Part shown: piece by piece, positions 1 through 44,200 of the stretch
Position numbering within the stretch: the first letter of the stretch is position 1
Layout: every line of letters begins with the position of its first letter
DNA from: Haliotis cracherodii
Lineage: Eukaryota
DNA length: 64,000 nucleotides
Assembly: GCF_022045235.1 (NCBI RefSeq)
Contig: NW_027266297.1
Location: 68,200,001-68,264,000, forward strand
Direction: 5' to 3'
Made by a program: the position numbers and the translations under genes
Notes under the pieces: generated by a model
Told to the model about the DNA's origin: nothing
Databases searched by the model: none
Seen by the model: only the letters and a program-made list of their open reading frames with translations

Positions 1-950
1 CAATACCCATCTATCAGACAGGGGACCCTACACCCACCAATACCCATCTATCAGACAGGGGACCCTACACCCACCAATACCCATCTATCAGACAGGGGAC
101 CCTACACCCACCAATATCCATCTATCAGAAAGGGGACCCAACATCCACCAATACCCATCTATCAGACAGGGGACTCTACACCCACCAATACCCATCAGAC
201 AGGGGACCCTACACCCACCAATACCCATCTGACAAGGGACCCTACACCCACCAATACCCATCAGACAGGGGACCCTACACCCACCAATATCCATCTATCA
301 GAAAGGGGACCCTACACCCACCAATACCCATCTATCAGACAGGGGACCCTACACCCACCAATATCCATCTATCAGAAAGGGGACCCTACACCCACCAATA
401 CCCATCTATCAGACAGGGGACCCTACACCCACCAATACCCATCTGACAAGGGACCCTACACCCACCAATATCCATCTATCAGAAAGGGGACCCTACACCC
501 ACCAATACCCATCTATCAGACAGGGGACCCTACACCCACCAATACCCATCTGACAAGGGACCCTACACCCACCAATATCCATCTATCAGAAAGGGGACCC
601 TACACCCACCAATATCCATCTATCAGACAGGGGACCCTACACCCACCAATATCCATCTATCAGAAAGGGGACCCTACACCCACCAATACCCATCTATCAG
701 ACAGGGGACCCTACACCCACCAATACCCATTGGGCAGGGGACCCTACACCCACCAATACCCATCTATCAGACTGGGGACCCTACACCCACCGATACCCAT
801 CAGACAGGGGACCCTACACCCACCAATACCCATCTACCAGACAGGGGACCCTACACCCACCAATACCCATCAGACAGGGGACCCTACACCCACCAATACC
901 CATCTGACAGGGGACCCTACACCCACCAATACCCGTCAGATAGGGGACCC
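1..950. repeat. Minisatellite, 33-37 bp unit (CCCACCAATACCCATCTATCAGACAGGGGACCCTACA)
   Basis: Directly visible tandem units; CAATACCCAT recurs at 1 and 38. ORFs 88-294 and 730-1026 are repeat translations. Confidence 0.95.
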
Positions 951-1022
951 TCATCTTCCCAAGGCAAGGGAGTTAACTGACTTAAGTCCAGTTTCCACCC
1001 TTGCCGAACTAGGCATTGTGCA

Positions 1023-2306
1023 GTAGGTATTCTGCTACAGTTGAAGTGTATAGCTGTTATGACATGTTTGTCATGTAGGTATTCTGCTACAGTTGAAGTG
1101 TATTGCTGTTATGACATGTTTGTCATGTAGGTATTCTGCTACAGTTGAAGTGTATTGCTGTTATGTGATCATGTAGGTATTCTGCTACAGTTGAAGCATA
1201 TAGCTGTTATGTGATCATGTACGTATTCTGCTACAGTTGAAATGTATAGCTGTTATGTGATCATGTACGTATTCTGCTACAGTTGAAGTGTATAGCTGTT
1301 ATGTGATCATGTAGGTATTCTGCTATAGTTGAAGTGTATTGCTGTTATGTGATCATGTAGGTATTCTGCTACAGTTGAAGTGTATAGCTGTTATGTGATC
1401 ATGTACGTATTCTGCTACAGTTGAAGTGTATAGCTGTTATGTGATCATGTAGGTATTCTGCTACAGTTGAAGTGTATTGCTGTTATGTGATCATGTAGGT
1501 ATTCTGCTACAGTTGAAGTGTATTGCTGTTATGACATCATGTACGTATTCTGCTACAGTTGAAGTGTATTGCTGTTATGTGATCATGTACGTATTCTGCT
1601 ACAGTTGAAGTGTATTGCTGTTATGTGATCATGTACGTATTCTGCTACAGTTGAAGTGTATTGCTGTTATGTGATCATGTACGTATTCTGCTACAGTTGA
1701 AGTGTATTGCTGTTATGTGATCATGTACGTATTCTGCTACAGTTGAAGTGTATTGCTGTTATGTGATCATGTAGGTATTCTGCTACAGTTGAAGTGTATT
1801 GCTGTTATGTGATCATGTAGGTATTCTGCTACAGTTGAAGTGTATTGCTGTTATGTGATCATGTACGTATTCTGCTACAGTTGAAGTGTATTGCTGTTAT
1901 GTGATCATGTACGTATTCTGCTACAGTTGAAGTGTATTGCTGTTATGTGATCATGTACGTATTCTGCTACAGTTGAAGTGTATTGCTGTTATGTGATCAT
2001 GTAGGTATTCTGCTACAGTTGAAGTGTATTGCTGTTATGTGATCATGTACGTATTCTGCTACAGTTGAAGTGTATTGCTGTTATGACATCATGTAGGTAT
2101 TCTGCTACAGTTTGAAGTGTATAGCTGTTATATGATCATGTAGGTATTCTGTTACAGTTGAAGTGTATAGCTGTTATGTGATCATGTAGGTATTCTGTTA
2201 CAGTTGAAGTGTATTGCTGTTATGACATCATGTAGGTATTCTGTTAAGTTAAAGTGTATTGCTGTTATGACATGTCATCATGTAGGTATTCTGTTAAGTT
2301 GAAGTG
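1023..2306. repeat. Minisatellite, ~46 bp unit (TCATGTAGGTATTCTGCTACAGTTGAAGTGTATTGCTGTTATGTGA), ~27 copies
   Basis: Directly visible tandem array. Confidence 0.95.
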
Positions 2307-2341
2307 ACTTGCTCCTGACAAAGTATGTGTCGGTGTTGCAG

Positions 2342-5300
2342 GCTGGCGGAGACTGGAAGCCATGGAGTATATGGACATGATGATGTTTATATGCAAATTA
2401 GACACTACTCATGACAAGATGGTGATGCGCCCTTCTACGGACAGTTTTACGGTTTTCTTCACCAAACATTGTGGAGGCTGGGCCCAACTGAAATTAATGT
2501 ATGGATTAATGACACAGGAGAGTAGTGCGGTAAGAACACTTTGCTGTATCGTATGAGTCTGTCTTTTGTTGGGGCGGTTGGGTCACCTCGTGGTTTGTGC
2601 ATTCACTCTTCACGCCGAGTGTTGCTGGAACATTGCTACAAGCCGCGTAAAACGATACTCACTCACCAACTCACTCACTCTTTAGTATGATACTGTTGTT
2701 CAGTGACAACGTAAAAACCATTCCCACAACTAATGCTTACAAACAACAAATATTAGTGTAAGCCAATGATACCTAGGTACTGGGTTGTAAGCCAATGATA
2801 CCTAGGTACTGGGTTGTAGGCCCACAATGCCTAGGTACTGGGTTGTAGGCCCACAATGCCTAGGTACTGGGTTGTAGGCCAATGATACCTAGGTACTGGG
2901 TTGTAGGCCCACAATACCTAGGTACTGGGTTGTAGACTCACTATACCTAGGTACTGGGTTGTAGGCTCACTATACCTAGGTACTGGGTTGTAGGCCAATG
3001 ATACCTAGGTACTGGGTTGTAGGCTCACAATACCTAGGTACTGGATTGTAGGCCCACAATACCTAGGTACTGGGTTGTAGGCCCACAATACCTAGGTACT
3101 GGGTTGTAGGCTCACTATACCTAGGTACTGGGTTGTAGGCCAATGATACCTAGGTACTGGGTTGTAGGCTCACAATACCTAGGTACTGGGTTGTAGACTC
3201 ACTATACCTAGGTACTGGGTTGTAGGCCAATGATACCTAGGTACTGGGTTGTAGGCTCACAATACCTAGGTACTGGATTGTAGGCCCACAATACCTAGGT
3301 ACTGGGTTGTAGGCCCACAATACCTAGGTACTGGGTTGTAGGCTCACTATACCTAGGTACTGGGTTGTAGACCAATGATACCTAGGTACTGGGTTGTAGG
3401 CTCACAATACCTAGGTACTGGGTTGTAGATTCACTATACCTAGGTACTGGGTTGTAGACTCACTATACCTAGGTACTGGGTTGTAGGCCAATGATACCTA
3501 GGTACTGGGTTGTAGACTCACTATACCTAGGTACGGGGTTTTAGACTCACTATACCTAGGTACTGGGTTGTAGGCCCACTATACCTAGGTACTGGGTTGT
3601 AGGCCCACTATACCTAGGTACAGGGTTGTAGGCTCACTATACCTAGGTACTGGGTTGTAGGCCCACAATACCTAGGTACTGGGTTGTAGGCCAATGATAC
3701 CTAGGTACAGGGTTGTAGGCTCACAATACCTAGGTACTGGGTTGTAGGCCCACAATACCTAGGTACTGGGTTGTAGGCTCACTATACCTAGGTACTGGGT
3801 TGTAGGCCAATGATACCTAGGTACTGGGTTGTAGGCTCACAATACCTAGGTACTGGGTTGTAGACTCACTTTACCTAGGTACTGGGTTGTAGACTCACTA
3901 TACCTAGGTACTGGGTTGTAGGCCCATGATACCTAGGTACTGGGTTGTAGGCTCACTATACATAGGTACTGGGTTGTAGGCCAATGATACCTAGGTACTG
4001 GGTTGTAGGCTCACAATACCTAGGTACTGGGTTGTAGACTCACTATACCTAGGTACTGGGTTGTAGGCCCACAATACCTAGGTACTGGGTTGTAGGCCAA
4101 TGATACCTAGGTACTGGGTTGTAGGCTCACAATACCTAGGTACTGGGTTGTAGGCCCACAATACCTAGGTACAGGGTTGTAGGCTCACTATACCTAGGAA
4201 CAGGGTTGTAGGCCCACAATACCTAGGTACTCGGTTGTAGACTCACTATACCTAGGTACTGGGTTGTAGACTCACTTTACCTAGGTACTGGGAATGATAC
4301 TTAGGTACTGGGTTGTAGGCCAATGATACCTAGGTACTGGGTTGTAGGCTCACTATACCTAGGTACTGGGTTGTAAGCCAATGATACCTAGGTACTGGGT
4401 TGTAGGCCAATGATACCTAGGTACTGGGTTGTAGGCTCACAATACCTAGGTACTGGGTTGTAGGCCCACAATACCTAGGTACTGGGTTGTAGGCTCACAA
4501 TACCTAGGTACTGGGTTGTAGGCATTGGATATCCAGGCGATGGGGTAGATCTGGGAATCCAACTTGCATACAACAGATCCTGCACCCATCATAGTGTATT
4601 CTCCTGCCATGTTTTATTGTATGATAATTATCCTTTGTTTTTTATTTACAAGATAGCAAAATAATTAAACATTTCCTGAACTGATGTTGGCTGCTTTGTT
4701 TGTTTGTTTGTTAATTACCATGGCTTTGTGAGCACCATCCCACTCTGTCAGAGTACAAAGTCATAAAAGTCTATCTTTTAACAACCTCTCAAAATAAACA
4801 TGGGAATCCCAACAGGGATGTCAGCAATATGTAAAGATTAAACACTTGATGGACATACATAGTTTAAAAAACACACTGGACAGTTATTGAGTTACACTAC
4901 AGAAACTAACACTACCTTTATTTCAACTAAAGTCTGGCAGCAAATTTTAAGCCAATTTACATATTTAGTTTTATAAAAACTCCTTGTAGATTCTCAAGTA
5001 ATTGTTTGCCTTATTTCAACTGAATCAAGACGTGATTTGTCTCTTCTTTTTTGTTGCGATTTTCCAATATTCATAATCTCTGAATGTGGGCAGGTAACTT
5101 TGAAATAGGCAGGCAACAGTTATGGGTCACCTGCACGACTGTCTTGCTGTGTTTTAAAATTATATCAAGCACTGCTTGTAAATGCAAGATTTAAAAAAAA
5201 ATGAAATAATCCTGATTAAAAAAAAGTCGCTAGTTCAGCACTATATGTGTATACAAAGTTTCAACTTAGAAAAATAAACCATTTGTAAGTGAACGTCCAA

Positions 5301-10753: not shown

Positions 10754-11405
10754 CCTGTGTGTTTTGTATGTCACATACCTGTGTGTTTTGTATGTCACAT
10801 ACCTGTGTGTTTTGTATGTCACATACCTGTGTGTTTTGTATGTCACATACCTGTGTGTGTTTTGTATGTCACATACCTGTGTGTGTTTTGTACGTCACAT
10901 ACCTGTGTGTTTTGTATGTCACATACCTGTGTGTTTTGTATGTCACATACCTGTGTGTTTTGTACGTCACATACCTGTGTGTTTTGTATGTCACATACTT
11001 GTGTTTTGTATGTCACATACCTGTGTGTTTTGTATGTCACATACCTGTGTTTTGTATGTCACATACTTGTGTTTTGTATGTCACATACCTGTGTGTGTTT
11101 TGTATGTCACATACCTGTGTGTGTTTTGTATGTCACATACCTGTGTTTTGTATGTCACATACCTGTGTGTTTTGTATGTCACATACCTGTGTGTTTTGTA
11201 TGTCACATACCTGTGTGTGTTTTGTATGTCACATACCTGTGTGTTTTGTATGTCACATACCTGTGTGTGTTTTGTATGTCACATACCTGTGTGTGTTTTG
11301 TATGTCACATACCTGTGTGTGTGTTTTGTATGTCACATACCTGTGTGTGTTTTGTATGTCACATACCTGTGTGTGTTTCGTATGTCACATACCTGTGTGT
11401 GTTTT
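10754..11405. repeat. Minisatellite, 22-30 bp unit (ACCTGTGTGTTTTGTATGTCACAT)
   Basis: Directly visible; the three overlapping long ORFs at 10697-11472 are repeat artefacts. Confidence 0.95.
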
Positions 11406-12068
11406 TGCACATAGTGGCCCCAAGGCCAGCATGTCCTGTGTCTTTAATGTAAAAGTCGAAGCTTATTTCTAACCTTTTCATTTTATATTGTATTTTCATA
11501 AAATGATTAATTATAAATTTTTATATGATTGAAAATGCTTCTTCAATGGTATTTTTTAATAAGATATTCCATGGACAGCACAACAGACCAAGGCGGTGAG
11601 ACTATATTTACGAGGGCTGACACCACACAAGTCTCAATTGGATGCACCCCAGTCTCAATAGCATATGCCTTTTATACACCAGAGTGTCAATGCTATGCAC
11701 CCGAGTGTCAGTGCTATGCACAATGTGTCAATATCATAGAGTTGGTTGGTTGGTTTGTTGTTTAACGCCGCACTCAGCAATATTCCAGCTACATGACGGT
11801 GGTCTGTACTACTGTACTAATTGGGATCGATGACATGTTTCAGCCAAGTCAGCGAGCCTGACCACCCAATCCCGTTGATCGTGACTTACGACAAGCATAA
11901 TACAATATTATAGAGAGATAGACACATAATGGGTGAAAATACAAAAGTAACAAAAAGAATAGCCCAAAATGGTGTCTTCCTGAGCAGTCAAGCTAGGGTG
12001 GTAGCGTTTCTACACAGTGTGGCAAATAAACATGTGCAGTGTATGAGAACGAATGTGACATGCGATAC

Positions 12069-12397
12069 CATGGGTACAAAAAATATATAAAGATATCTTG
12101 AATTCATTTCTGATATCAAAAATACAATTACTGATATCTTAAAGTGTTACTGTGATATCAACAAAATATTTTGTGATATCTCTATATGTATTTAAGATAT
12201 CATTAAACAATTACCATCCTACTGTACATAATCATATTAGAAATAAATTCAAGATATCTAAAAATAAGTTATACATATCCACAAATACAGATATCTTATA
12301 TTGAATTAAAGATATCAAAAACAAATTAATGATATCTGTGTTTGTGGATATGTATATCTTATTTTTAGATATCTTGAATTCAATTAAGATATCATTA
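12069..12397. repeat. GATATC array with ~21-bp period (left block), containing a 50-bp inverted repeat
   Basis: GATATC separated by 14-15-nt AT-rich, mostly unique spacers; inverted arms at 12246-12295 and 12331-12380. Confidence 0.85.
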
Positions 12398-12563
12398 ATG
12401 GCAAACATTCCTGGAGTTGCGCCCCCTTGCCCGCTTGGCGGCGCTGCGGTAGTTACGGTCCCACATTCATCGTTGTATCCGCGGGAATATATAAACTTCA
12501 GTCGACATTGACCCACTTGCGTTTCTGTAAACAGCCGGTAGTACTTGAAGGCCTATTTCTATC

Positions 12564-15500
12564 ATGAATTACGGAAGCTGGAAGTTGCCCGAACTGAAGA
12601 CTGAGCTCAAAGCACGAGGTGCTCGAGTGTCAGGACGAAAAATTGATCTGATAGAACGGTAAGTTTCTAATATTGCTATTCCTCGTCATTTCTTACTGAG
12701 CATTTATTTTATAAGATTGTAACAGTAATTATTCCCCATTTTGTCACAATACACAGTGCAATATTGGTATCATCGTCATTGGTAGAACATATGTTTAGTT
12801 TAGACAACTGAGATCGCTAAACAAATAACGTAAGCATCGAGGCGATAGTGCCGACAACATAAGTGCTTCAGTTTTCGTTCACGTAAACAAAATGTCCCCG
12901 TTTAAGGACGCTTTGCGATGCACTGACAAGGGAAAGAGCGGTAACCACGGATCTTGTACGGAAGGTAAGTGTCAGTCACAATAATTTATTCTTCGAATTA
13001 ATGACTCACTGGCAGTGTACAAAATATAACACCCTTTTACATGAGGTTGGGATAACTTCCGGTTTCATAGATTCTATAATTATTTGGGCAATTATTCAAT
13101 AATACATCGTTCTTCGATACATATAAATATACATAGTGAATTTAAGCAGATACTATCTTGGAAGCGGTCTAAGGACTGCATCGCATTTTACTTAACATCC
13201 ACCCCCCCCCCCCCCCCCCCCCCCGAATAAATGACAAGTCCCCAAATATGTATCTTAAATAATCATAATGCCCCCGTCCCTTTCTTCGTTTCTATACACA
13301 TATTTGGAATTGTGATTCATCTGTGGCCAAAACATGATGTAACAAAGCGTGAGGTAGGTTCTGAAATATTTGTAAAACATTAAAAATTGCTTGAGCTCTG
13401 CACCATCCGATGGCTGAAGAAAGACTGAGGGCTATCACGTTCATCGTCCTTTACAGTGAGTGTGTTTAGATTTTCATATATTTTTATTCATTTTAGCAAG
13501 TGTGATGGGTTCACACATTTCTTATTTCCTCAGTGTGAAAGGTACACACATTTAATTATTTAAGCCAGAAGTTTGAAAGGTTCACACATTTATTAGGACT
13601 GAAACGATACATTGGTGCACTGGTGCATCAAGTTTTCATGCATGATACACAGTACTTTTTTACACTTGCTAAATTAAGTTTCTTACTACTTGTTTTATGA
13701 CACCCAAGTGTCAGTCAAATACTGCAAATATTATGTAATTAGCATTTCAAATTCACAACTAGAAATTTCCTTTTGAACCTGCTCTGAAATATTTAGTCAA
13801 GAAGTTTCCACACAATTTGACATAAAAAGGTGACCTTATGTACTGTGATGTGATCTCCCTGTATCGTTTCACCTAGAACATTTATTTCATCCACAAGTGT
13901 GAAAGGTTCACACATTTATCATTTCATCCACAAGTGTGAAAGGTTTCACACATTTATCATTTCATCCACAAGTGTGAAAGGTTTCACACATTTATTATTT
14001 CATCCTCAAGTGTGAAAGGTTCACACATTTATTATTTCTTCACAAGTGTGAAAGGTTTCACACATTTATTATTTCATCCACAAGTGTGAAAGGTTCACAC
14101 ATTTATTATTTCTTCACAAGTATGATGGGTCCATACTTTGATGTGCATAACAACGTTTTTAATTCTAATATTAAAATTAGATGTAATGAAGCTTTTGAAT
14201 GGTAGTCTAACAGAGTAATCTTTAGACATCGGTTCGATTCCGGTCGAAGGCAAACACATCGAGAGTCCTTATTCACTGCATGTATTTATATTTTGTGACA
14301 CAATGTCTTATTCTTGTGTTAACATTAATATCCATATTATTATATGTTGTTTGTTTTCTAACAAAAAATTATATACAATTACTGAAGTGCAAGTAAAGAT
14401 ATTATTACTGTTTTAGTACTGATAATGCAGAGATGGCTTAAGCTTCCTTACTGACAGAAATACTGATTTGTTGACTTTGGAGTTACAGGGATCTGTTCTT
14501 AAAATAATTGTACTTTTTGACAAAATGGACACTATGACATTTGTGTACTCCAAAAATAATTTAATAGTCCATATATTTTACAGTCATTTTTTTTCAATCA
14601 GGTTCTTTCTTTTACAGTTGTTTATTTCAAATGTTTTTCAGACTCGAGAGCTATGACCGAAACTGCAATTTTGGGAAAGAAACAGAACTTGAAGCCGAGT
14701 TCGAAATGACACTGCCCCCAGTCGAAACTTATAGGGATGTAAATGGTGACAGTCATCTTCCTTTTTTAGCATATGAAGCTATAAATTATTACTTACAGCC
14801 TTTTCAGAAGAAACTTGGTTCAAGTTCAAAAAATCTGTACACTAGTAGGTTTTTGAATTTTTTTCGGTATTCAAAACCAGGTAACATGTGTTTCCTGAAG
14901 TCTGAGTGCCGTGCTGAAATGAAGAAGCATGTGACTTACAAAGTCGATATTGCAATTGATGACGATGGTTCTGTTGTGGAGGGGCAGTGTGAGTGTGCTG
15001 CAGGCCAGGGTCCATCAGGACATTGCAAACATATTTGTGCAGTGTTATATGCTATGCACAAGTTTTCAACAACTGGCGATGTTTTAACTGAAGAAACATG
15101 TACTCAAAGATTGCAAACCTTTCATAAAAGTAAACCCTATAAAGGCAGTCCCATAAAGGCGACTGACCTTGATTTATGCAACAGTGAACTGAATGTTATA
15201 TTTGACCCACGACCAGTTCAGTATCGCAAAGTGCCAAATTACCCTGACTTTTTTCGCAATGTTTGGTTAAACCACCCTAGTGTCAATACATTTCCAGTTT
15301 CTCAAATGTTTCCTCCAGCAAATCCATTTGCTGTTAATCATGATCATGATTATCTTAAGTTATCTTTAGCTGACCAATACCTGAAATCCCAGAATATATC
15401 AGAAATATCAGATATGGATAAAACCAACCTTGAAATAATAACCCGTAAACAGTCTAAGAGCGAGGAATGGAAAACTGAACACACAAAGAGAATTTCTTCT

Positions 15501-16076
15501 TCCAATTTTGGAAAAATTTGTTTGGCAACAGACAAAACTGATTTTCATAAACTTGCTAGATCAATGACTAAGCCTTTCGAGGACATTCAAAGTCCACCAC
15601 TTAGACATGGCAGAAAATATGAAAAGGTGGCAATAAAAGCTTTTGAAAGGTCAAGTGGTTTCAAAACCTCACCATGTGGCATGTTTGCGTCAGATGTTCA
15701 TCCATTTCTCGCAGCTTCACCAGATTCACTTCTCGGTGATGATACTACCATTGAAGTGAAATGTCCATTTGCATCTAAAGACCGCCTAATCTCAGAGATA
15801 ACTGTTCCCTATTTGAAGGTATCTGAGGGAAAACTTACCCTTGACAAAAGCAAGCCATATTTCTTTCAAGTGCAAGGGCAGCTCTACTGTACTGGTAGAA
15901 AACAGTGCATTTTTATTGTATACACGATGAAGGATTTGAAATATTTTACTGTATCCCGAGATGATCATTTCATTGAATCTATGGTTGAAAAACTTGTGGC
16001 ATTTTATGACACCTTTTTCAAAAAGGCACTTCTTGACAAATTCTATTTCAGAGATTATGACAGGTATTCCTGGTAA
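12564..16076 (+). CDS. SAP-SWIM-YqaJ (lambda-exonuclease-like PD-(D/E)XK) protein, 509 aa; exons 12564-12658 and 14642-16076
   Basis: Exon 1 MNYGSWKLPELKTELKARGARVSGRKIDLIER is SAP-like and ends CG|GTAAGT, joining TTTCAG|A CTC GAG in frame. SWIM motif CECAAGQGPSGHCKH; YqaJ motifs RISSSNFGKI, HGRKYE, FLAASPD, IEVKCP, YFFQVQGQL. No stops or frameshifts. Confidence 0.9.
13498..14138. repeat. Array of 36-38 bp hairpin repeats (AAGTGTGAAAGG(T)TTCACACATTTATTATTTCATCCAC) in the YqaJ-gene intron
   Basis: Three degenerate units at 13498-13595 and 6+1 units at 13895-14138; stem GTGTGAA/TTCACAC. Confidence 0.9.
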
Positions 16077-18216
16077 ATTTCAGATGCTGATACTCATGTG
16101 TCAATGGTCATGAGCCCTATAAACAAGAACGACAGAATTGTAGTCTCAATGTTTTATGCTGAACATATTATATACTGCATATATGGACATTCACAAACAA
16201 ATAGTTATGAAAAGACTTGCAGGGTTCCATTTAAGGATGAAATTTCAACAGATGCATGTTGACATGAAAAGAGTTGCATCAGACAAAACCAGGTTGAACT
16301 CTGATGCATTCACTTGTGTAAATAAATACAACCATGACAATCTCAGATGTCTATTAAGACATTTAGTACTTACTGTTACAGTACTATGTGACAATGGCAA
16401 CCATCTTTTAATCACTCCAGTAGTTAATAGTTGGATAATCTAAATATCACAACATACACACTGGTCCCATACATGGATGCATTCACTAGTCTAAATAAAT
16501 ACAATCTCTGATGTCACAGTTAGTACCTACTGTTACAGTACTATATGACCAGGCACCTCATTATCAACTACTTGAAAGAATAAATGGTCTGTAAAAAAAA
16601 TTAATCTAAATATGTATGTGAATCATTAATTGCCTGTTTTCAAATTTGATGTGATGCTATAATCAACTGACATTAATGAAGGCTCTGTCCAAGAGGTTGA
16701 AGTCACCCCCACCGTGTGACACATAATCCTATAATAATCAATGTAACTATCCTCAACCAGTGTTTTAAGCCAGCTCATTGCTGACTGGCTAGTATTGAGC
16801 ACAACCACCAGTGGCTTAGTTAATGACATAAATCCTGCTGGTGTATCGTGCAGGAAGCAGAGGTGCTGTAAGTCCCCATGATCCCCAGCGAGGTGGCCTA
16901 GCTTTGGTTTCTGGTGGCCTATAACCCATGTTTTAAAACTGTATAAATGATATTGTTATGTCCAAATGTGTATTTAAAATTGTTTTTAAATATACCTTTG
17001 CATTCATGAGTAAATTGTGTACATCAACTTGGTCTCGTCGCTATATGGCTGAAATAGTATTGATGTGACATTAACTTTTAACTCACTTTGTGACGATGGC
17101 AACCATCTGTTAATTACTCCAGTAGTTAATAGTTGGATAATCACAATATTTAAATATAGATGAAGCTACAGTGCAATACATAATCACAATTCAGTGTCCA
17201 TACTCATAAATATCATCACTGCTTGAAGCATACTCCTTCAGCTCTGTATCTGAAGAATTACAACTGTCATGTGATTATTATCTGCAGCTGAACTGTTTGA
17301 GGGAATGATAAAAAAACATTGTCATTGACTTCTTGCTTGTCATGATTGCCTTTTATAACATCTGAGAGAGCTGAAGCAACAACACTAAGATGTGCCAGAT
17401 ATCTGGACCGGTCTAGCTGCTGCCAGTATCATATGAAACAAGAATACACAGCCATGGGACGCATTAGAATTTTGTCCTCATTACAGCCACAATGCACAAA
17501 GTAACAGACTTAAACACAACTTAGGACAATTAATTACAATTTGTTTCTCAGTAAACATGTATCCATTGAAGGATGGATATATGATCCAGAAATATACACT
17601 TCAACTTATACAGATTTTAAGTTTGTGAAATAGAAGCAACCAGTATTTGGGTTTAATCCAAATTGCTGCCATGGAAAACAGGAAAAGGCACCAGTTCGAC
17701 TTGTGTTTGATACATGTGCAAAGTTTCATAATAACATATGAAACAGTTTCCGAATTATGCTCGGACAAATAATGTGTCTCTCCCACTTTGTGGCAGGGGA
17801 TAATGTAACAGTACGCAAAATGTAACAATACGCACAATACTGTCAACATTCTTAAATTCATGTTACTGATGTCATAAATTTAAAACAAATTCAGTAAGTG
17901 AGATGGGTTTAACACCACACTGAACAGGAAGTTTAGCATTATATTAACAAAAGCTCTGATTGTTTGTGGCTGCATAAATGGTAAGTTTGCTTCAAACTTG
18001 CTTTTTGACCACAGTTTCCCATTCTAGTCTCAACATGATACATAATCTATAACATGTTACATTTAACTTTATCCTCATGAATATTTAGCAACAATTAATT
18101 TTAATCATGTAGCAAACGCAAATAACAGGCCCTTTTGAAAGAATTAGAAACAAATCTCCATACCCTACGTCTGACTGGAATGAAAGATATTTTTAATGAT
18201 TTTCTAACCAATATGA

Positions 18217-20772
18217 TTAGCAAGTAGAGGGAACAATGCACTTCTTGAAAGAACAAAGCATGAAGCAAACAGTGGTTATTTCTGTGGCTAATTTGGTTTC
18301 TGAACTGTTAAGAGGTTCAGTAAGTATTTTGAATGTTTTTGCCAGACCAATAATACGTTCAATGTGAACTCTTTTGCTTGATATTTTCCTATCACGCATA
18401 ACAGTCTTGCCAGACATACGGTTTTTCTTTGAGAAGAATGTTGGCATATTAATGGTAACATCTTTTGGTGCAAAAATATCTTGTACGTTGAAACCCTTAT
18501 CGGCCATAATACTATCTCCTGGGTCGCACATCACTGTCAAACCACTACGCTCTACTATTTGACGATCACTTGTGGAGCCACCATATGCAGGAGACACATA
18601 TGACACAAGACCACCTGGTGTGGATCCAACAAGTATTTTGATAGTATTTCGATTTTTATACGTTGAGTAGGTAGACTGCTGAGCTATGGGGCGTTTTGGT
18701 TTCTGGATAGGGCATTCAGTACCATCAATGATAATTCGTGTGGATGGAAATTTGGATTTGAAATCAGAAGGACAAAAATAGTGCACTAAGTCTCGTTCTG
18801 GCCAGTTATCAAGCTCACTCCACTGTCTATACATAAAATTTACCCAGGTGATCCATACATTTAATACAGTTTTCTCTGAAATTCCAAAATGAAGACCAAG
18901 TTCAAAGTTAGTCTTATGTCGGCGCAGTTTCATAAGTGTTAAAAGCAATTGATTTTCCACACTGATAGTTATACTGTCAACTTTGCTGTACAAATAATTT
19001 AGGTGATATGCACACGGACCCAAACTTGCAAGTACAAAGGTGAAGTCTGTATAGTTTGACAGTCCTGTATAAAACAAAATTGCTGCAGCATTAAACATAA
19101 TACTTTGTATTGAAAGCATTGGAAATTTGTCTGTCTGAGCTGATGTACTTTCATATTCAACCTCTGCACTATCTGCAGAACAAATGTTTAGGTCGGTATT
19201 CATGTCATCAAACTCAACATTGTCAATTATTTCCTCCCCAGCTACCTCACTGATATCACATTCAATATCACAATCTGTATCCATTGCTTTAAATGTCCTC
19301 TTTTTGTTCTCACGCCTTTCAATGCGGGATTTCCTTAAGCCTCCATCGGCCTCAAGTGCGTTGGCTGATTCAGTCCAGGGGAAGATTGATGGTACAGCAT
19401 CTGGTTTTCTCTGTTTCCTCAGAGGTGTACACCCTGGGAAAAACAGCAGTAGTTTATTATTTTCCAAACAGATATTGTGTAATCTTTTGACTACCAGTTG
19501 TGAGATAACTTTTTATGATAAGATTTAAGTTAATTTGCAGGGAAAGAAAAAAATTTCTATGGGCACGCTATGTTTTGTCACATTATGAACATAATAGTGA
19601 TACACATCAATACATTAGAAAAGTAAACAAACTTTTAAATTAAGGAAAATTATGATATAAATTAGCTGACAATTTAGCTGATATAGTCTCAACATTACAT
19701 ACATATAATGCCTGATACAGAGAAGTGTCTTCAAGTTCAACACGTACACATGACACTGTTCTGACAAATACATATCAAAAGTGAACAAACATGAACCTGT
19801 ATTCTTGAATCATCTGTGCCTCATCTCTGTGGAAAACAAGCACCTGCAGGAAAATGTAACATGATGCATTAAAGGCAAAAACGTCAAATATGTGTTGACA
19901 TTCCTGGTAAACATCAATTCAACAAATTAAAGAAGAAAACTAAGATGGGTTATGATCAAACATCAATAACTTCATAAACAGGAATATAATGGTGGTAAAC
20001 AGGGTTTTACCTCAATTAACTGGGTATGCACTAGACCCCCAGTAATTGATTTCAAAGGCCCTTGCATGAAATATATGAGGGTCAAACCTATACATCACCA
20101 TGAGCACTGACTGGCAAAAAAATGGCTACTATAGTAAGGCAAAAAAGACACATTATTTCTATCTGGGTTTTAAAAAACAATGAAATATACTCATAGGTTC
20201 ACATGCAAACACACATAACCGTGATTTCATTAGAATTAGCCAATACTCCAATTTACTCGCCTACTCTGAACTAAAATTATTGTGAAAAAAATCCCACACT
20301 TCGAAGTTTTAAGAATCTTTACTCAATTTAACTCAATGACAATATCAAACTATCTGTGGAAATACGTGTGTCCCGCGGGACGGAACATATTCTATTTTGT
20401 CTGCGTCCATTCTTCACATTTCTGCATACTGGATACACATTTCTGAGTCACGTAAAACCCTCTTCGTAGTTTCAATGCAAGAAAATATAACAAATATAAT
20501 TGGCATGCACGTTAATTAAATCTGCCAACGAATAGAAACATAACAAGTTACCCAAATATCTTACCATAACTAGTTACAGCAATGAAATCAGACGGTCTGA
20601 AGTGAGAATGACACACAACACTGTGAGGTGACGGTTTCCACATCTTGCCTTGGTTTGATTCGTCGCTCCTCCGAACAGCAATCAACCATCGTTTCTGCAA
20701 CATGGGTTCTCTCGGGAACGACAAACCACCTCGATTGCAGCATCCCGGGACACAGCAGCACGTCGAAGGCAT
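18217..20772 (-). CDS. THAP-HTH-DDE (DDE_Tnp_4/Harbinger-type) transposase, 474 aa; exons 20565-20772 and 18217-19433
   Basis: Exon 1 MPSTCCCVPGC...FP...W...VVCHSHF (THAP C2CH) ends G|GTAAG and joins TTCCCAG|GG in phase 1 to ...DAVPSIFPW (THAP AVPTIF-type box). HTH region ENQLLLTLMKLRR..LGLHFGISEKTV; catalytic motifs IIDGTE, GGSTSD, MADKGF, RVHIERIIG. Confidence 0.92.
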
Positions 20773-20912
20773 CGTAAATACTTCGTTATAGTTGTTGGTC
20801 GTGCAAATATCTATGAACCGCGTAATATACCGGAAGTACGCGCAGGACCGTAGCGTTTGGCGCCATCTATTGGCGAAGTAGTAAAGGGGCATAACTGAGG
20901 AATGTTGGCCAT

Positions 20913-21700
20913 TCTGACCATTACTGATATAAAAATTCAAATTAAAGATATCATTAATAATTTTGAAGATATCCTTATATCAATTGTTGATATCTGTAAT
21001 ATAATTTAAGAAACATGAAGGAACGGCAAAAGAATTATTCTGGTCTCCAAAAGTGCAGAAAATTATTTACAGATATCTTCAAATACTTCCGATCTGGCTA
21101 CATATCCATAAATTCTTCGGGTTCCAAAATGGCGGCAAACCATGCCCAACTTGTGCAGGAACTTGTAACAGCATGCCAAGCAATTCGCGGAGTTAAGGTG
21201 TTGACTATGTCTACTGTGATCAATTTGAAAAAGTGGTTGTGTGAAGAAATTTTCCACCATGGTTAGAAACATAACCCACAGTACTTAACAGATGGAAGTA
21301 TTTGAAGATAACTTTAATTTTGAAGTCTTTAATAATGGCAACAATTGAAGATATAAATGATTAATTATTGATATCTGTATTTAGTTTTAAGATATCAGGA
21401 ATTGAATAACTGATATCATAACGACTTCTTGGAATCTTTAAATCATATTTTGATATCATTAACTGAATTTAAGATACCAGTAATAAGCTTCACCATATCC
21501 TTTTGTGATATTCTTAATTCATTTCATGATATCCTTAATTCATTTCATGATATCCTTAATTCATTTCTTGATATCCTAAATTTTATTGCAGATATCTACA
21601 ATTATCTGTATTTAAGATATCTTCAATTCCATTCAAAATATCTTTTAAACAATTGAAGATATCAGTAATTCCGTTATGAATGTGAAAACAGCTTGCCATA
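20913..21700. repeat. GATATC array with ~21-bp period (right blocks ~20926-20996 and ~21370-21663) around a unique ~300-bp core, ending in ...GCTTGCCATA
   Basis: GATATC with mostly 15-nt spacers; abrupt junction to a SINE-like fragment (GAGCCTAACCACC) after 21700. Confidence 0.8.
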
Positions 21701-22377
21701 GAGCCTAACCACCTGATCTCGTTAGCCACCTCTTCATGCCGAGTACCAGACAGGGTAACAACAAGTACCATCTTTTAATGTCTTTTGGTATGACACGGCC
21801 TGGGATCAAACCCCGGACCTTCCGCTCTACCACTACACCACGGAGGCGGTTCTGAGGGGGGAAGATGTTTACAGACACCAACACTGACTGACACCAGACA
21901 AGTAGTCCATGACATAAGCTCACGTCATCAGGTACACATCACAATACACAAACTATACATGCACTCAAAACTTTGTATCACCACTGGAATTCCTATTAGA
22001 GTCTGTCTAGCTTAACACAAAATAAACACTAGTAATTAGTTTTCACATTTTATTTCTGTCAATGAACAAGTCAGTTCACAACTTACGTCTTGTGACATAA
22101 CTATGAATGTACATTGAATATGTAAATAGGTTGGTCTCTGACATTTGACATTGACCGTGATGCTTAAAGCCAACTCCCACAGAACCTCCCTGCCTTGGTG
22201 AGAAATTACAAGCCACGTTATGTCCAAGCATAACTGTAGCAGGAGATGAGCACTTCTAAATCTCGACACAGCAACAAGGCGAGTCAACAAATAAAGATAC
22301 ACTGTCATGTTGAAGGAGCAAGTCATCTGGGAGTTGGCCGGTGAAACACAGAATAATGATGCAGATAGTGAAGGAGA

Positions 22378-38253: not shown

Positions 38254-41200
38254 ATGGCTGTAAATGTGTACAACACAAGTGCCACAGCGGAAAATTTGAG
38301 CCGGCATGACATCATTGGTTGGGTCAATGACACTTTACAAGCTAACTACACAAAAATTGAGGAACTCTGTTCAGGTTGGTTTTATTTTCCATCTTAGGTT
38401 CTTGATCAATATAGGGTATAGTTGTTTGTAGTTTAATACCACACTCAGCGATATTCTAGCTATTGGACCTGTAGGAAGGAAACCTGTATATAATTCAGTC
38501 TGGACTAGACAAACAAGTGATTGAAATGATGGGCAACATTGCACGCTACACACAATCAACCAAGTTACCATCCTGACCATGATCTCACCCGTGAAGATCC
38601 GGGGTAGAATAGGTCTTCTGCAACCCATGCTTGTCGTAAAAGGCGACTAATGGGATCGGGTGGTCAGGCTCGCTGACTTGGTTGATGCATGTCATCGATC
38701 CCAATTGCATGGATTGATGCTCATGATATCAATCACTGGATTGTCTGGTCCAGACACGATTGCAGCGTAAAATAACCGACCAACCAACCAACCATGATCC
38801 ATCTAGTAGCCTCATGGACAAGCATGGTTGTTGTTCTAACCCGGAATTTCAACAGGAAAAGGTATAGTGTGCTCGATAGAGCTGAATAAGATATGTGGCC
38901 TGACTGATTGTGTGTCACCATGTTCCAATGTGATGGGTGTTACTTCTACTATCAACCATTGGTTTACCTTGTCCCAATTTGATGTAAAAGGCTCTTTTGT
39001 TCCAGCTTATACGTTGCTGATTTTGTGTAAAACAACATTCACTCACTCACTTTAGATATGGTTTCAGATCTGTTTTTTTTTTTAGGACATTGACTGATTA
39101 TCACCTAAAATGTCTACAGATATATTTTCAAATTTGTTAAAGATATAAATTTGATGAAATCATGAATACCATATGTCTCTGCAAAACCACTGCCTTACCT
39201 CTCCCTGGCCATGCCGACATCATATAAGCACACACAAATACAAGTGTGATAGTTTAATATGGACGTCTTTGAGAAGCCCCATTTAAGGCATTCTGTCTGA
39301 CGTAATGAATGCAGCAGACGGTATTGATTTGTGTGGGATGAGTGTTTGCTGGATCTCACTGATTGTCTCTTTGGAAGACTCCTTTTACAGACAGCCACAC
39401 CCATGCTGCCCAGTGTTTGTTTCTGTTTCTGTCCTTGTCACAGTAACACTGGCAGTGTCCATGTGTGGCTTAGGTTGTCCCCGGCAACCAACTGCTCTCT
39501 CTTTGTACTTCTCCAGGCAGTATGCAAAACAGAAGGAAGTTTCTATTACATTCAGGATACATTATTGTTTGTACTCTGGGTTTGAAACTGGGTCTGCTGC
39601 AGTGGCCTCAACATCATATGCATTGATTATATAATGATACAGTGTAAATGTGCATAGCAACCCATTATCAATATCATAATGCTGAATGTTCCCAGTTGAA
39701 AATGTTTGTGACAATTACTATGAGCACTGTCCAGTGTTTGAAATAATTTTAATACCCAACAAGCATGACAAGACAGTTGGGCAAGTGACCCATAAGTGTT
39801 GCTGCCCATTGTCAAAGTAACCTGCCCAGTTTCAGACAGTTTAAATATTGAAAAATCGCAAAATATAAGAGACAAATAGCATCTTGATTCAGTTGAAATA
39901 ATGCAAACAATTACTTGAGAATCTGGGGCGGTCGGGTAGCCTAGTGGTTAAAGCGTTTGCTCGTCACGCCGAAGACCCGGGTTCGATTCCCGACATGGGT
40001 ACAATGTGTGAAGCCCATTTCTGGTGTCCCCCGCCGTGATATTGCTGAAATATTGCTAAAAGCGGCGTAAAACCATATTCACTCACTCACTTGAGAATCT
40101 ACAAGGAGTTAAGCTAAAATTGAATACACGAGGAGTCAAAACAATATCTGTCAATCGGGCAGGTAGAAGAAAATTCATGCAGAAGACAGGCAGTTATTTC
40201 GGACACTGGCACTGTCTATCATGTGTGTCTTTTCATTCATGTTCCATGTACTGAAATTATTTTCAGTTGTGACGTCTATTTTTGTTTAGGCTTAATGAAA
40301 TGATAATTGTGTTTCAGTCAGTTATCTCGGGTATGTGGGATTTTTCTTGGTCTGCCAAGAAACTGATGTCTGCAGGTCTGCAGCAAATTAAAACATGACC
40401 AAGTTATGTCAAAATAATTATAACTAATTTTATGATAATGACAAAGAGAAAAATATGAAGTTCAACAAGATAATTATTTTTCCCAATGTGTAAATGTTTA
40501 AGAGCTGCATCACTTTGGACATTCTTTAACCTGACAGGCAATGCCATACTGAAACACTGTTATCAGCGATGTTAAACCAAACTTGATCATACAACAAGGT
40601 TTCAAAGCAGTGGCATGGTTTGTGGTGCTTCTCAATTCACTTTTACTGAAAGAGGTATGTGACCTGGCGTAAAACAAATATTGCTTCAAATTTTGCATGA
40701 TATGTCATCATATCTGTCATGTCTTTGAAAATTTGACGTATAGAGTTTGGTTTTTTTAATGGTCCATTTCACATTGGCGATAGACTGACTCTAAATATGT
40801 TGCCAAGCGAATCCCAATATGGCCATGGTGTCTGAATGGTCCATTTCATATTGGCGATAGACTGACACTAAATATGTTGCTAAGCGAATCCCAATATGGC
40901 CATGGTGTTTGAATGGTCCATTTCATATTGGCGATAGACTGACACTAAATATGTTGCTAAGCGACTCCGAATATGGCCATGGTGTTTGAATGGTCCATTT
41001 CATATTGGCGATAGACTGACACTAAATATGTTGCTAAGCGACTCCCAATATGGACATGGTGTTTGAATGGTCCATTTCATATTGGGGATAGACTGACTCT
41101 AAATATGTTGCCAAGCGAATCCCAATATGGCCATGGTGTCTGAATGGTCCATTTCATATTGGCGATAGACTGACACTAAATATGTTGCTAAGCGAATCCC

Positions 41201-44200
41201 AATATGGCCATGGTGTTTGAATGGTCCATTTCATATTGGCGATAGACTGACACTAAATATGTTGCTAAGCGACTCCCAATATGGACATGGTGTTTGAATG
41301 GTCCATTTCATATTGGCGATAGACTGACTCTAAATATGTTGCTAAGCGACTCCCAATATGGCCATGGTGTTTGAATGGTCCATTTCATATTGGCGATAGA
41401 CTGACACTAAATATTTTGCTAAGCGACTCCCAACATACCCATGGCCACAACATGCCAGTTGGAGCAGTGAACGGGAATGTTTATGAGAGGACAACCCTAA
41501 ATATTTTTTCCACTTGAAACACCTATGTGATACTGGCATCACAGCATCTAGAATAATAATGATCTATTAAACATGTTAAACTGAAAACCACTTATTTTTC
41601 AATTGTACCCAAACTGTATCTGTATTCAATGGTTTATGTTGTCATGCTATCCATTGGCCAGCTATGAAACATGATGTATCACACAGTCTGGTTCCAAACC
41701 TCTGTTGACCCGTGAAGATTCCGGGGTAGTATAGGTCTTCAGCAACCCATGCTTGCCGTAAAAGGTGACTATGCTTGTCGTAAAAGGCAACTAATGGGAT
41801 CGGGTGGTCAGGCTCGCTGACTTAGTTGATGCATGACATCGATCCCAATTGCGTGGATCGATGCTCATGATATTAATCACTGGATTGTCTGATCAAGACT
41901 CGATTATTTACAGACTGCTGTCATATAGCTGGAATATTGCTGAGTGCGGCGTTAAACAACAAACCAACCGACCGACCAACTAAACCTCCGTTAAACATTA
42001 CAAGACTACCTAATATCACATATGTATGTGTCATTTATGTCGATGCATTTACAAGCCTTCAGAAAAGGACATGCATGGTGTAGATGACAGTATCACATTA
42101 CAAACACTTTCAATGAATCCATTCTAATCAAAGCTGTCATTTGTCTGTTTGTAAGACCATGGGTAACATTTGTTTGCAGTGCAAACATGACATTACTTCA
42201 CCTCCTTTAGTAGTGAATGGCTGTTGACAGTTTGGGTTAAATAGGCAATGCAAACCTTTGTGCATGTGTTTCTATACAAACAGTAGATGCTTAACTGAAT
42301 GCTTTCTTTCCTTTCAGGTAGTTCATATTGCCAGTTTATGGACATGATGTTTCCAGGTGAGTTATCGTCACACAATGACACTGTAGTAGCTCTAGGCTTT
42401 CCTTTGACCTCTTAACTGTCAGGATATTATTAATATGTATAAACATGACGAAGCCATGATGAGTGCCTGAAAAATCACCTCAATCTAGTAGCAAAGAAGA
42501 ATGTATTTTGTCCAGGTTGATATACCATGGAGGACCATTCTGAGCTGAAGTGTCTTTATAAATATGATAATGTTGTTTATAGTTGCTTGGCAGATAAATG
42601 AATGTTGGTCCTGAATGTTTATGAATATATGGCTTAGACATCTCTATGCAGTGAAGAATGTGGCCTAGACATGGATGAGTCATGAGACAGCTGGATCCAA
42701 GGGCATATCGTCTTCATTGATAAGTGCAACACACTGTCATAAATATAAACGCCTCTAGTAAGCTTTGACCAAAGTATCAATTTATTGTACATTCTGTGTG
42801 CAGATAGATTTATACCATGTGGTTGTCATATATAGTTGTCTTTCTACATGTTCTACAAATATCAATGTATGAAAATCATTTAATTGATTTTTTTTCACTC
42901 ATTCTTCCATGTATAAACAAGGTTCATACAGGCTTCGAAAGCCCTTGTATTTTGAGGCCCCTCTTGAAAAGCCTTGATTATTTTTTAATATCAGCCATGA
43001 AAAGCCTTGAAAATCACAAATAGCTTGAAAAGCCTAAAAATTTGTACAAAAGGACTGTACATATATACATGATATACCTGTTAATATAAGTATATGTATT
43101 CAAAATTCTTCACTGACTTAATGCATTTTATTATTGGTTGTGAAAATAAGTCTTATTGGAAAATTTGTGATGTTCATACTGCTTTTCAGGTCTTACGATT
43201 AATATATAGTGTGCTTGATTTAAAAACATATATTGACAGACCAAGGGTAATAAACCAACTAAAAATCCTTGAAATGCCTTGAATTGTTCCATATCTGTAT
43301 GAACCTTGATAAATGTGTTTAGACTCTGAGATTTACAACTAATGATACACCGCATCACATTTATTACGTATGTGTACTGTCATTGTGAGTATTGTGTTTG
43401 TTGTCTATGTAACTTATGAGAAAGGTAAGCTGCATGTCATTGATGTTCCTGAGCCATCTTGTCCCAGATTACACATGTATGTATTGCCTCTGTTTAGTCT
43501 GTGTAGAGACATATTCAGTAGAGTATATTTCCTTCGGGTATATAGTACATATACTTGTTATCAAGTTTATTTACCGATCGCCTTGTAAACTTAAATGAAA
43601 ACCAAGGGTGTGGCAGTCTACCTTAAATTTAATTCAGAATGCAGAAATAACGATTCCACTCAGTTACAATGTGACAATTAATAATAGAAGTCAATGGATA
43701 CACTCTCATGTTAAAAGGAAAGATGATGGAGATTAACATTAAGATATCAGAAGAAAACCTCAAGGCCCCTTTGATGCTCTCTAAGTGTCAACATTTTGTT
43801 GATGCTCATTAAAACCTGTGACTTACTATTGATGTAATATGGAGAGGTTCAGAGTGTTACGCTAGATTACAGTGTTATGTATTTTATGCTGGTGGACATA
43901 ATTGAATATTGCAAATTTTATGAAAGCAGTAATAATAGTTTAGGAATTGACACACATAACATGAATATCTTTTAACCACCCTTTATCATGTATAAGATTT
44001 ACTTATGAACAAGAAAATCAGTTCCTATTCATCATCTACAAGGTAACTTAAATAATAAATATGGAACAAGTTTGGATGAATTTTTGCCACATGTAGTTGC
44101 ACACTACATGTAGTTGTATTTATTGCATTACAGGACAAAATCAACAATACCTATAGTCTGGAAGTTAATTTAAGATACCGACGTTTACTACAATATCTGA

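What the first reader, a model, noticed from the sequence alone, without database searches (positions are those of the whole stretch)
12069..21700. Transposon sits between phased GATATC arrays: fixed hexamer, mostly unique 15-nt spacers, 21-bp period
Seen: on both sides of the TIRs (12092-12393, ~20926-20996, ~21370-21663) GATATC recurs about every 21 bp. Spacers are mostly different (e.g. AAAAATACAATTACT, TTAAAGTGTTACTGT, AACAAAATATTTTGT, TCTATATGTATTTAA, AGGAATTGAATAACT), so length is conserved while sequence is not. Inference: a palindromic site every two helical turns suits a dimeric DNA-binding protein loading on one DNA face. Either the ISL2EU inserted into, and possibly targets, a ~1.1-kb non-autonomous element, or the arrays are outer arms of a composite 9.6-kb mobile unit.
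Basis: partly seen in the sequence, partly recalled or inferred. Interest (0 to 1): 0.7.

Follow-up and report, generated by a model that had tools for sequence, protein, structure and literature searches.

The report
Transposon nested inside phased-repeat transposon
The evenly spaced GATATC repeats are the end arms of an older, gene-less jumping element of the little-studied IS3EU family, into which an unrelated younger transposon has inserted; their spacing of two DNA turns likely lines up that family's transposase along one face of the DNA.

Summary
The arrays are real: 12 and 14 GATATC against a shuffle mean below 0.4, with an autocorrelation peak at 21 bp. They do not belong to the central transposon.

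An 8.5-kb ISL2EU element (12400-20910, AT duplication) inserted into a roughly 1.1-kb non-autonomous element that is dispersed genome-wide. None of the other ISL2EU ends checked (9 right, 11 left) has array flanks, so targeting and a composite unit are refuted.

The host element ends TATGG...CCATA, and 19 of 21 complete copies have a 6-bp target duplication (at most 1 mismatch), the IS3EU/GingerRoot signature. Two large elements elsewhere in the genome carry the same arms and perfect 6-bp duplications around an integrase-type (rva_4) transposase; one also has a HECT gene. The window copy is an internal-deletion derivative that lost its left tip.

The same terminus, with the first GATATC 37 bp inside, recurs in 21 metagenome contigs whose spacers differ. 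Spacers are not random: AA and TT are kept at fixed positions.

Likely function: phased docking sites for the IS3EU transposase (inferred, untested). These are known kinds of element; I did not find the arm architecture described.

The parts
12077..12399 (+). Left GATATC arm of the IS3EU-type non-autonomous element; its outer ~104 bp, including the left TIR, are missing in this copy
   Evidence: Matches positions 105-439 of complete copy L025 and 105-370 of element A's left arm at 88-92% substitution identity; no left-type TIR anywhere in the window at up to 6 mismatches; a contig of another run spans 11905-12218 with 6 differences, so the truncation is not an assembly artefact
12398..12399 (.). 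AT target-site duplication of ISL2EU, left copy (context A|AT|T)
   Evidence: Sequence; other copies read through this site with one AT
12400..20910 (.). ISL2EU (PHIS) DNA transposon, 8511 bp, imperfect 25-26 bp TIRs starting GG
   Evidence: several full-length copies elsewhere, 96-100% identical at the right end and 89-100% at the left end
12564..12658 (+). ISL2EU second gene, exon 1: SAP domain (splice sites inferred from GT/AG and frame)
   Evidence: Pfam SAP E=1.5e-9
14642..16076 (+). ISL2EU second gene, exon 2: SWIM finger and YqaJ exonuclease
   Evidence: Open frame 14568-16076; YqaJ E=1.1e-15; SWIM E=3e-4
18217..19512 (-). ISL2EU transposase, main frame: HTH_Tnp_4 and DDE_Tnp_4
   Evidence: E=4e-13, 3e-38
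20565..20772 (-). ISL2EU transposase exon 1: THAP domain (donor site inferred)
   Evidence: Pfam THAP E=4.7e-11
20911..20912 (.). AT target-site duplication of ISL2EU, right copy
20913..21128 (+). Inner part of the left arm of the IS3EU-type element: last GATATC units and promoter-like stretch before the left gene
   Evidence: Aligns to 419-698 of element A's left end at 87.7% substitution identity
21129..21257 (+). Decayed 5' remnant of the autonomous element's left gene (starts MAANHAQLVQEL); its link to the downstream HECT frames of element A is inferred
   Evidence: HECT hit in element A
21258..21260 (-). Start codon of the IS3EU transposase, kept at the internal-deletion junction
   Evidence: Same context as the transposase ATG in elements A, B and C
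21261..21678 (-). Right GATATC arm of the IS3EU-type element
   Evidence: 83.9% substitution identity to element A's right arm
21679..21700 (-). Right TIR core (...GCTTGCCATA); the outermost GATATC lies 37 bp from the end
21701..21706 (.). Expected right 6-bp target duplication (GAGCCT); its left partner was lost with the left tip
   Evidence: 6-bp rule; cannot be confirmed in this copy

Best explanation
The GATATC arrays are the two subterminal arms of a non-autonomous IS3EU/GingerRoot DNA transposon that was later interrupted by an unrelated ISL2EU insertion, and they likely serve as helically phased docking sites for the IS3EU transposase. Shown: the nesting, the TATGG...CCATA ends, the 6-bp duplications, the same arms on large elements that encode an integrase-type transposase, and the fixed 37-bp offset and 20-21 bp spacing with free-drifting spacers. 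Inferred: a transposase HTH domain reads each half of the palindrome, a conserved Gly-Arg-Pro arm reads the AA/TT bases three positions away, and successive pairs of subunits load on one face of each arm. This would build a protein-coated end that pairs with the other end before the DDE core cuts at the terminal TA. The ISL2EU landed there because its A|AT|T target is dense in these spacers.
For: Nesting: the empty site is found within 6 mismatches in 11 of 29 other loci and none of the 29 holds an ISL2EU TIR (alignment). 0 of 9 other right ends have any GATATC within 800 bp, and 11 other left ends have 0 (8 ends), 1 (2 ends) or 2 (1 end). The window MITE is 83-93% identical to relatives, whereas ISL2EU right ends are 96-100%, so the ISL2EU is younger. 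AATT is 30 per kb in the MITE against 7 per kb in the rest of the window. Family: 14 perfect and 5 one-mismatch 6-bp duplications in 21 complete copies; 149 exact TIR matches against 0 for the control. Elements A (G000:C12:48293082-48318606, duplication GTGCCG) and B (C34:49227815-49313548, CAACCG) enclose the two best rva_4 hits of the genome, and the transposase ATG lies about 50 bp inside the right arm. Constraint: between two intact sites 42 bp apart the middle hexamer is 0.93 identical to GATATC while neighbouring spacers are 0.54 identical (n=146). In 23 ends from 21 metagenome contigs the first site lies at offset 37 (21 ends), 36 or 38, the first 22 bases are 92% identical to this genome's, and 0 of 66 spacers are shared. 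Reader: GRP precedes an HTH in 61 of 66 homologues long enough to score; the top fold match is IstA, whose two HTH domains read repeats 23 bp apart (PMC10122671, passages).
Against: No binding data. The HTH hits in this genome's protein are weak (HTH_7 E=0.026, below the cut-off), and its predicted sequence reads SRP, not GRP. The fold matches have low TM-scores (0.22-0.29 by query length) and mainly reflect the DDE core. Among 15 copies the left-arm hexamers depart from the column majority only slightly less than spacers (0.045 vs 0.065), so constraint is weak within the genome. The 146 triplets are not independent. The metagenome loci were selected for four sites at 21 bp, so only the TIR and offset there are unbiased, and none holds a transposase match. 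IstA, Tn7 and IS607 ends use direct repeats, not palindromes. 21-bp indels are the commonest class (26 of the counted indels), which plain unit slippage also predicts. Element A's transposase gene is interrupted by nested repeats, so no intact autonomous copy was shown.
Confidence: 0.75

Rival explanations
1. The arms are read by a host factor (for example a GATA-type or other palindrome-binding protein) or shape nucleosomes, and act as enhancers or chromatin shields for the two inward-facing promoters and not as transposase sites.
For: Both arms end in a promoter-like stretch directly before a start codon. GATATC holds back-to-back GATA words, and phased A/T dinucleotides are a known nucleosome signal (recalled).
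Against: The array is fixed to the terminus (offset 37) and not to the start codons. Short derivatives of 340-930 bp keep both arms but drop the promoter middle and still have clean duplications, which suggests the arms matter for mobility.
Confidence: 0.12
2. The arms are a functionless minisatellite that expanded by slippage from one 21-bp unit, and only the TIR matters.
For: Whole-unit indels dominate, some runs are near-perfect tandem copies (21506-21582), unit number varies from 1 to 34, and a 157-bp copy with one GATATC has a near-perfect duplication (L103).
Against: Neutral decay with hexamers 0.93 intact predicts neighbouring spacers about 0.87 alike; 0.54 is seen. Hexamer, offset and AA/TT positions persist in other samples with no shared spacer.
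Confidence: 0.1
3. The ISL2EU targets these arrays, or arrays plus ISL2EU move as one composite 9.6-kb unit.
For: Only their adjacency at this one locus. If the left tip were intact, the IS3EU machinery could in principle carry the ISL2EU as a passenger.
Against: No other ISL2EU end has arrays. The host copy is older and lacks its left TIR. The site fits the ordinary A|AT|T target (PMC4482050, passages).
Confidence: 0.03

Closest known systems
IS3EU/GingerRoot DNA transposons (PMC10045372 and PMC12730594, passages; PMC6839031, abstract, passages, sections 18 and 21)
   Same: TA..TA ends, TAYGG..CCRTA, 6-bp duplication, integrase-like DDE transposase, presence in marine animals, GC-rich targets, cargo genes.
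   Different: The passages read describe TIRs of over 30 bp or 100-150 bp but no phased palindromic arms ('subterminal' 0 and 'HECT' 0 hits in PMC6839031). Here the second gene is HECT-like and convergent, and targets lean to CG at the duplication ends (13 of 21), whereas GingerRoot showed no base preference.
ISL2EU group of PHIS transposons (PMC4482050, passages)
   Same: The central element has GG termini, an A|AT|T target, a THAP-HTH-DDE transposase and a YqaJ second gene.
   Different: 8.5 kb against an average near 4.8 kb, owing to long introns; otherwise typical.
IS21 IstA ends (PMC10122671, passages) and IS607/IS1535 ends (PMC6188088, abstract and passages)
   Same: Several transposase-binding repeats in helical register near the end: IstA repeats 23 bp apart with conserved blocks and an AT-rich minor-groove stretch; IS1535 TnpA dimers form a filament on phased motifs.
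   Different: Bacterial; two to four direct repeats, not 10-20 palindromes per arm. IS607 uses a serine recombinase. A working analogy only, not membership.

Membership tests
IS3EU/GingerRoot (host element) | TA..TA termini, TAYGG..CCRTA | tested here: met
   16 of 21 complete copies read TATGG at the left and CCATA at the right exactly; in the window only the right end survives
IS3EU/GingerRoot (host element) | 6-bp target-site duplication | tested here: met
   14 perfect, 5 with one mismatch, 2 absent of 21; elements A and B perfect; not testable on the window copy itself
IS3EU/GingerRoot (host element) | Integrase-like DDE transposase between the same ends | tested here: met
   rva_4 E=4e-75 inside element A, also in B and beside C's right arm; second D invariant and E in 97 of 98 homologues
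IS3EU/GingerRoot (host element) | Phylogenetic placement within the Repbase IS3EU/GingerRoot clade | not tested
   No labelled IS3EU reference proteins were fetched; that Pfam rva_4 marks this family is my recollection, consistent with the ends and duplications found
ISL2EU (central element) | AT duplication in A|AT|T context and GG termini | tested here: met
   8 of 9 other right flanks start ATT and 8 of 11 other left flanks end AAT
ISL2EU (central element) | THAP+HTH+DDE transposase and YqaJ second ORF | tested here: met
IS21/IS607-type multi-site end | Transposase binds the repeats and needs their phase | not testable with these tools
   Needs EMSA, footprint or excision assay

The most novel reading that the evidence does not exclude
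A widespread animal lineage of IS3EU transposons keeps a strict end geometry: a conserved 22-bp tip, a first GATATC 37 bp in, and 10-20 palindromes every two helical turns with only hexamer, spacing and two AT pairs conserved. Its transposase polymerises along these arms as a one-faced filament, letting elements of tens of kb with a ubiquitin-ligase gene and nested cargo be excised, and it integrates preferentially at CG-flanked sites.
Probability: 0.35. Interest if true: 0.6.

Novelty: new member of a known kind. Interest (0 to 1): 0.36.

Why it matters
As a locus this is ordinary nesting of two known transposon types. Its value is as a first handle on how IS3EU elements work. [quoted passage not shown] The analysis links a MITE to its coding partner and gives a precise candidate binding code (hexamer, AA/TT, 20-22 bp period, 37-bp offset) and a candidate CG-flanked target bias. 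These make the end-recognition mechanism of the family directly testable.

Tried and rejected
Targeting and composite unit: rejected.

An empty allele at this exact locus in other individuals: seven distinct runs were laid in two calls. No joint 12399 to 20913 was among the rows shown, but 128 and 32 joints were not shown and one search was swamped by a flanking high-copy repeat, so this is undecided.

Hairpin explanation of the spacers: a spacer is no more self-complementary (0.49) than complementary to other spacers (0.54), so the symmetry lies in the motif pattern and not in each unit.

Homodimer fold of transposase residues 25-250 of P0003: no verdict, not used either way.

A transposase near the arrays in the 138 metagenome and viral loci: no tblastn match (the same test also printed nothing). 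117 of the 138 loci had no TIR by my filter and look mostly like ordinary tandem repeats; none of the 22 viral loci had the TIR.

The 24 rva_4 loci showed no phased pair within 1.5 kb. That flank is too short to reach the arms even for element A, so it says nothing about other IS3EU families.

PDB sequence search gave only weak HTH and integrase hits.

Literature: no description of the arms found or 45 (search listings only; the 7 papers holding the TIR word have unrelated titles). Repbase and Dfam entries could not be searched and may describe this family. The supplements of PMC6839031 (termini of coral elements) and PMC10045372 were not opened.

Full report
Observation. The arrays are as described. 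There are 12 exact GATATC in 12069-12399 and 14 in 20913-21700, against shuffle means of 0.25 and 0.39 (maximum 3 in 1000), and only 15 in the remaining 62.5 kb. Autocorrelation peaks at 21 bp in both stretches. All 12 exact 15-nt spacers in the window differ, but they share a pattern: A at positions 4-5 and T at 11-12 in about 85% (both strands pooled), with neighbours about 50% identical against 36% for random.

The central element. 12400-20910 has imperfect GG-starting TIRs and an AT duplication in an A|AT|T context. It encodes THAP, HTH_Tnp_4 and DDE_Tnp_4 on the minus strand and SAP, SWIM and YqaJ on the plus strand. This meets the ISL2EU definition in PMC4482050 (passages). Each end gave 16 matches in the genome. 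The right terminus was present in 9 other loci (two share a flank) and absent from 6; none of the 9 had a GATATC within 800 bp. The left terminus was present in 11 other loci and absent from 4; they had 0 to 2 scattered sites and no array. The ISL2EU therefore neither targets nor carries the arrays.

The host element. A search with the right flank gave 206 candidates, 40 scored. In several of the 29 other loci fetched, the match to the window's left array runs directly into the match to its right part. The empty site was found within 6 mismatches in 11 of 29, and none of the 29 held an ISL2EU TIR. The alignment shows the site with one AT where the window has two. The element's ends are TATGGCAAGC...GCTTGCCATA, with 149 exact matches genome-wide and 0 for the control. 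Of 21 distinct complete copies (157-1852 bp), 14 have a perfect 6-bp duplication, 5 one mismatch and 2 none. Triple sites at 21-bp spacing occur 821 times (control 72); at 22 bp they occur 185 times (control 114). TA..TA ends, TAYGG..CCRTA and 6-bp duplications define IS3EU (PMC10045372 and PMC12730594, passages). The window copy lacks its outer 104 bp on the left; a contig from another run spans that junction. It is 83-93% identical to relatives at substitutions in almost all comparisons, older than the ISL2EU. AATT, the ISL2EU target, is four times denser in it than in the rest of the window, which is enough to explain the landing site (inference).

The coding partner. The two best rva_4 hits of the genome lie between pairs of these TIRs: element A, C12:48293082-48318606, duplication GTGCCG, and element B, C34:49227815-49313548, duplication CAACCG. 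A third, C, has a decayed transposase beside a right arm. All are broken up by nested inserts, so no intact autonomous copy was shown. The transposase ATG lies about 50 bp inside the last GATATC of the right arm. The left arm leads into a second gene, and HECT frames lie downstream on that strand in A; that they are one gene is inferred. The window MITE keeps both arms, the start of the left gene (21129) and the transposase ATG (21260), so it is an internal-deletion derivative. The closest database proteins, at 100% and 92%, are labelled Haliotis; homologues at 50-62% come from echinoderms, bivalves, fish, insects, corals and sponges.

Conservation of geometry. 21 metagenome loci carried the same or a variant TIR; the other 117 loci did not. 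In those 23 ends the first site, allowing one mismatch, lies at offset 37 in 21, and at 36 and 38 in one each; in this genome it is at 37 in 31 of 34 ends. The first 22 bases are 92% identical to this genome's, bases 23-37 are 60%, and none of 66 spacers is shared with this genome's set. The period in these loci was selected by the query; the TIR and offset were not. How many host species they represent is unknown. Within this genome the gap spectrum is 21 (224), 20 (44), 42 (41), 25 (19), with 22 seen twice. Between two intact sites 42 bp apart the middle hexamer is 93% intact while spacers are 54% alike (n=146, not independent). Against this, recent drift among 15 copies is only slightly lower in hexamers than in spacers (0.045 vs 0.065), and 21-bp indels are the commonest class. 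Five loci with 22-bp spacing were read; four show a diverged terminus containing CCGT(T/A)TT, suggesting older sister families with a 20-22 bp period (read by eye).

Mechanism (inferred). Homologues have an N-terminal helical bundle, a GRP motif (61 of 66), an HTH, a second HTH-like domain and the DDE core. The model of P0003 has mean pLDDT 84.8, and its best fold match is IstA, E=1.3e-5, with low TM-score. IstA reads end repeats 23 bp apart with two HTH domains and a minor-groove linker (PMC10122671, passages), and IS1535 TnpA dimers form a filament on phased motifs (PMC6188088, passages). A GRP arm in front of an HTH reading A/T minor groove is known from Hin-type domains (recalled; Hin was only a weak hit, E=0.56). 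I therefore propose that transposase subunits bind the two halves of each GATATC and the flanking AA/TT, load on one face of each arm and promote end pairing. I put this at about 0.7 given the identity of the element, which I consider near certain. This genome's predicted protein has SRP in place of GRP, and no binding has been shown.

Novelty. Both elements are members of named groups. I found no description of the phased arms, the HECT partner or the CG-flanked target bias in five full-text searches (listings only) or in the passages and sections read of PMC6839031. Repbase and Dfam could not be searched and supplements were not opened, so prior annotation is quite possible. I recall similar GATATC-rich elements in fish genomes, which I did not test. 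An earlier scan note on 21-bp hexamer arrays in a fungus (e1-9828479) is a lead only.

Verdict. A real pattern with an ordinary locus-level explanation (chance nesting) and a moderately interesting, testable end architecture for a neglected transposon family. Interest 0.36.

Noticed in passing
Target duplications of 21 IS3EU-type copies (L006-L116 and elements A, B): 13 of 21 six-base duplications start or end with CG (both strands pooled: C at position 1 in 24 of 42, G at position 2 in 20 of 42), although CG is 1.7% of window dinucleotides. A possible CG-N2-CG target bias.
   Followed up: partly
G000:C12:48293082-48318606 (L117-L119): Element A carries a nested stretch with protein-primed DNA polymerase B frames, BIR domains and a zinc knuckle, flanked by repeated segments. 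Described only.
   Followed up: no
G000:C34:49227815-49313548: An 85.7-kb span between matching TIRs with a perfect 6-bp duplication, swollen by nested LTR-type, LINE-type and other inserts; only 40 kb of it was read.
   Followed up: partly
L265-L269 (e.g. G000:C2:42366372, C1:26608338): Decayed GATATC arrays with a 22-bp period and unique AT-rich spacers, four behind diverged TIR-like ends; probably older sister families.
   Followed up: partly
G000:C14:15546255-15547922, 15710201, 15799412: The TIR motif recurs head-to-tail every 407 bp, suggesting a satellite built from this element.
   Followed up: no
window 21084-21092, 21126-21136 and 21293-21300: The inner end of both arms has an ACTTCC-type word, and the left one a AAAATGGCGGC start context; they resemble ETS and YY1 sites (recalled), hinting at two inward-facing promoters.
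   Followed up: no
window 13882-14125 and 16715-17065: A 37-38 bp tandem array in the long intron of the ISL2EU second gene, and a high-copy repeat between its two genes.
   Followed up: no
window 11741-11899 and 21701-21850: Both outer flanks are pieces of a very high-copy interspersed repeat; the IS3EU-type copy itself appears to have inserted into one.
   Followed up: no
window 1-4523, 10754-11400, 40754-41444, 58134-59001: Long tandem arrays of 37, 46, 29, 24, 77, 20 and 4 bp units.
   Followed up: no
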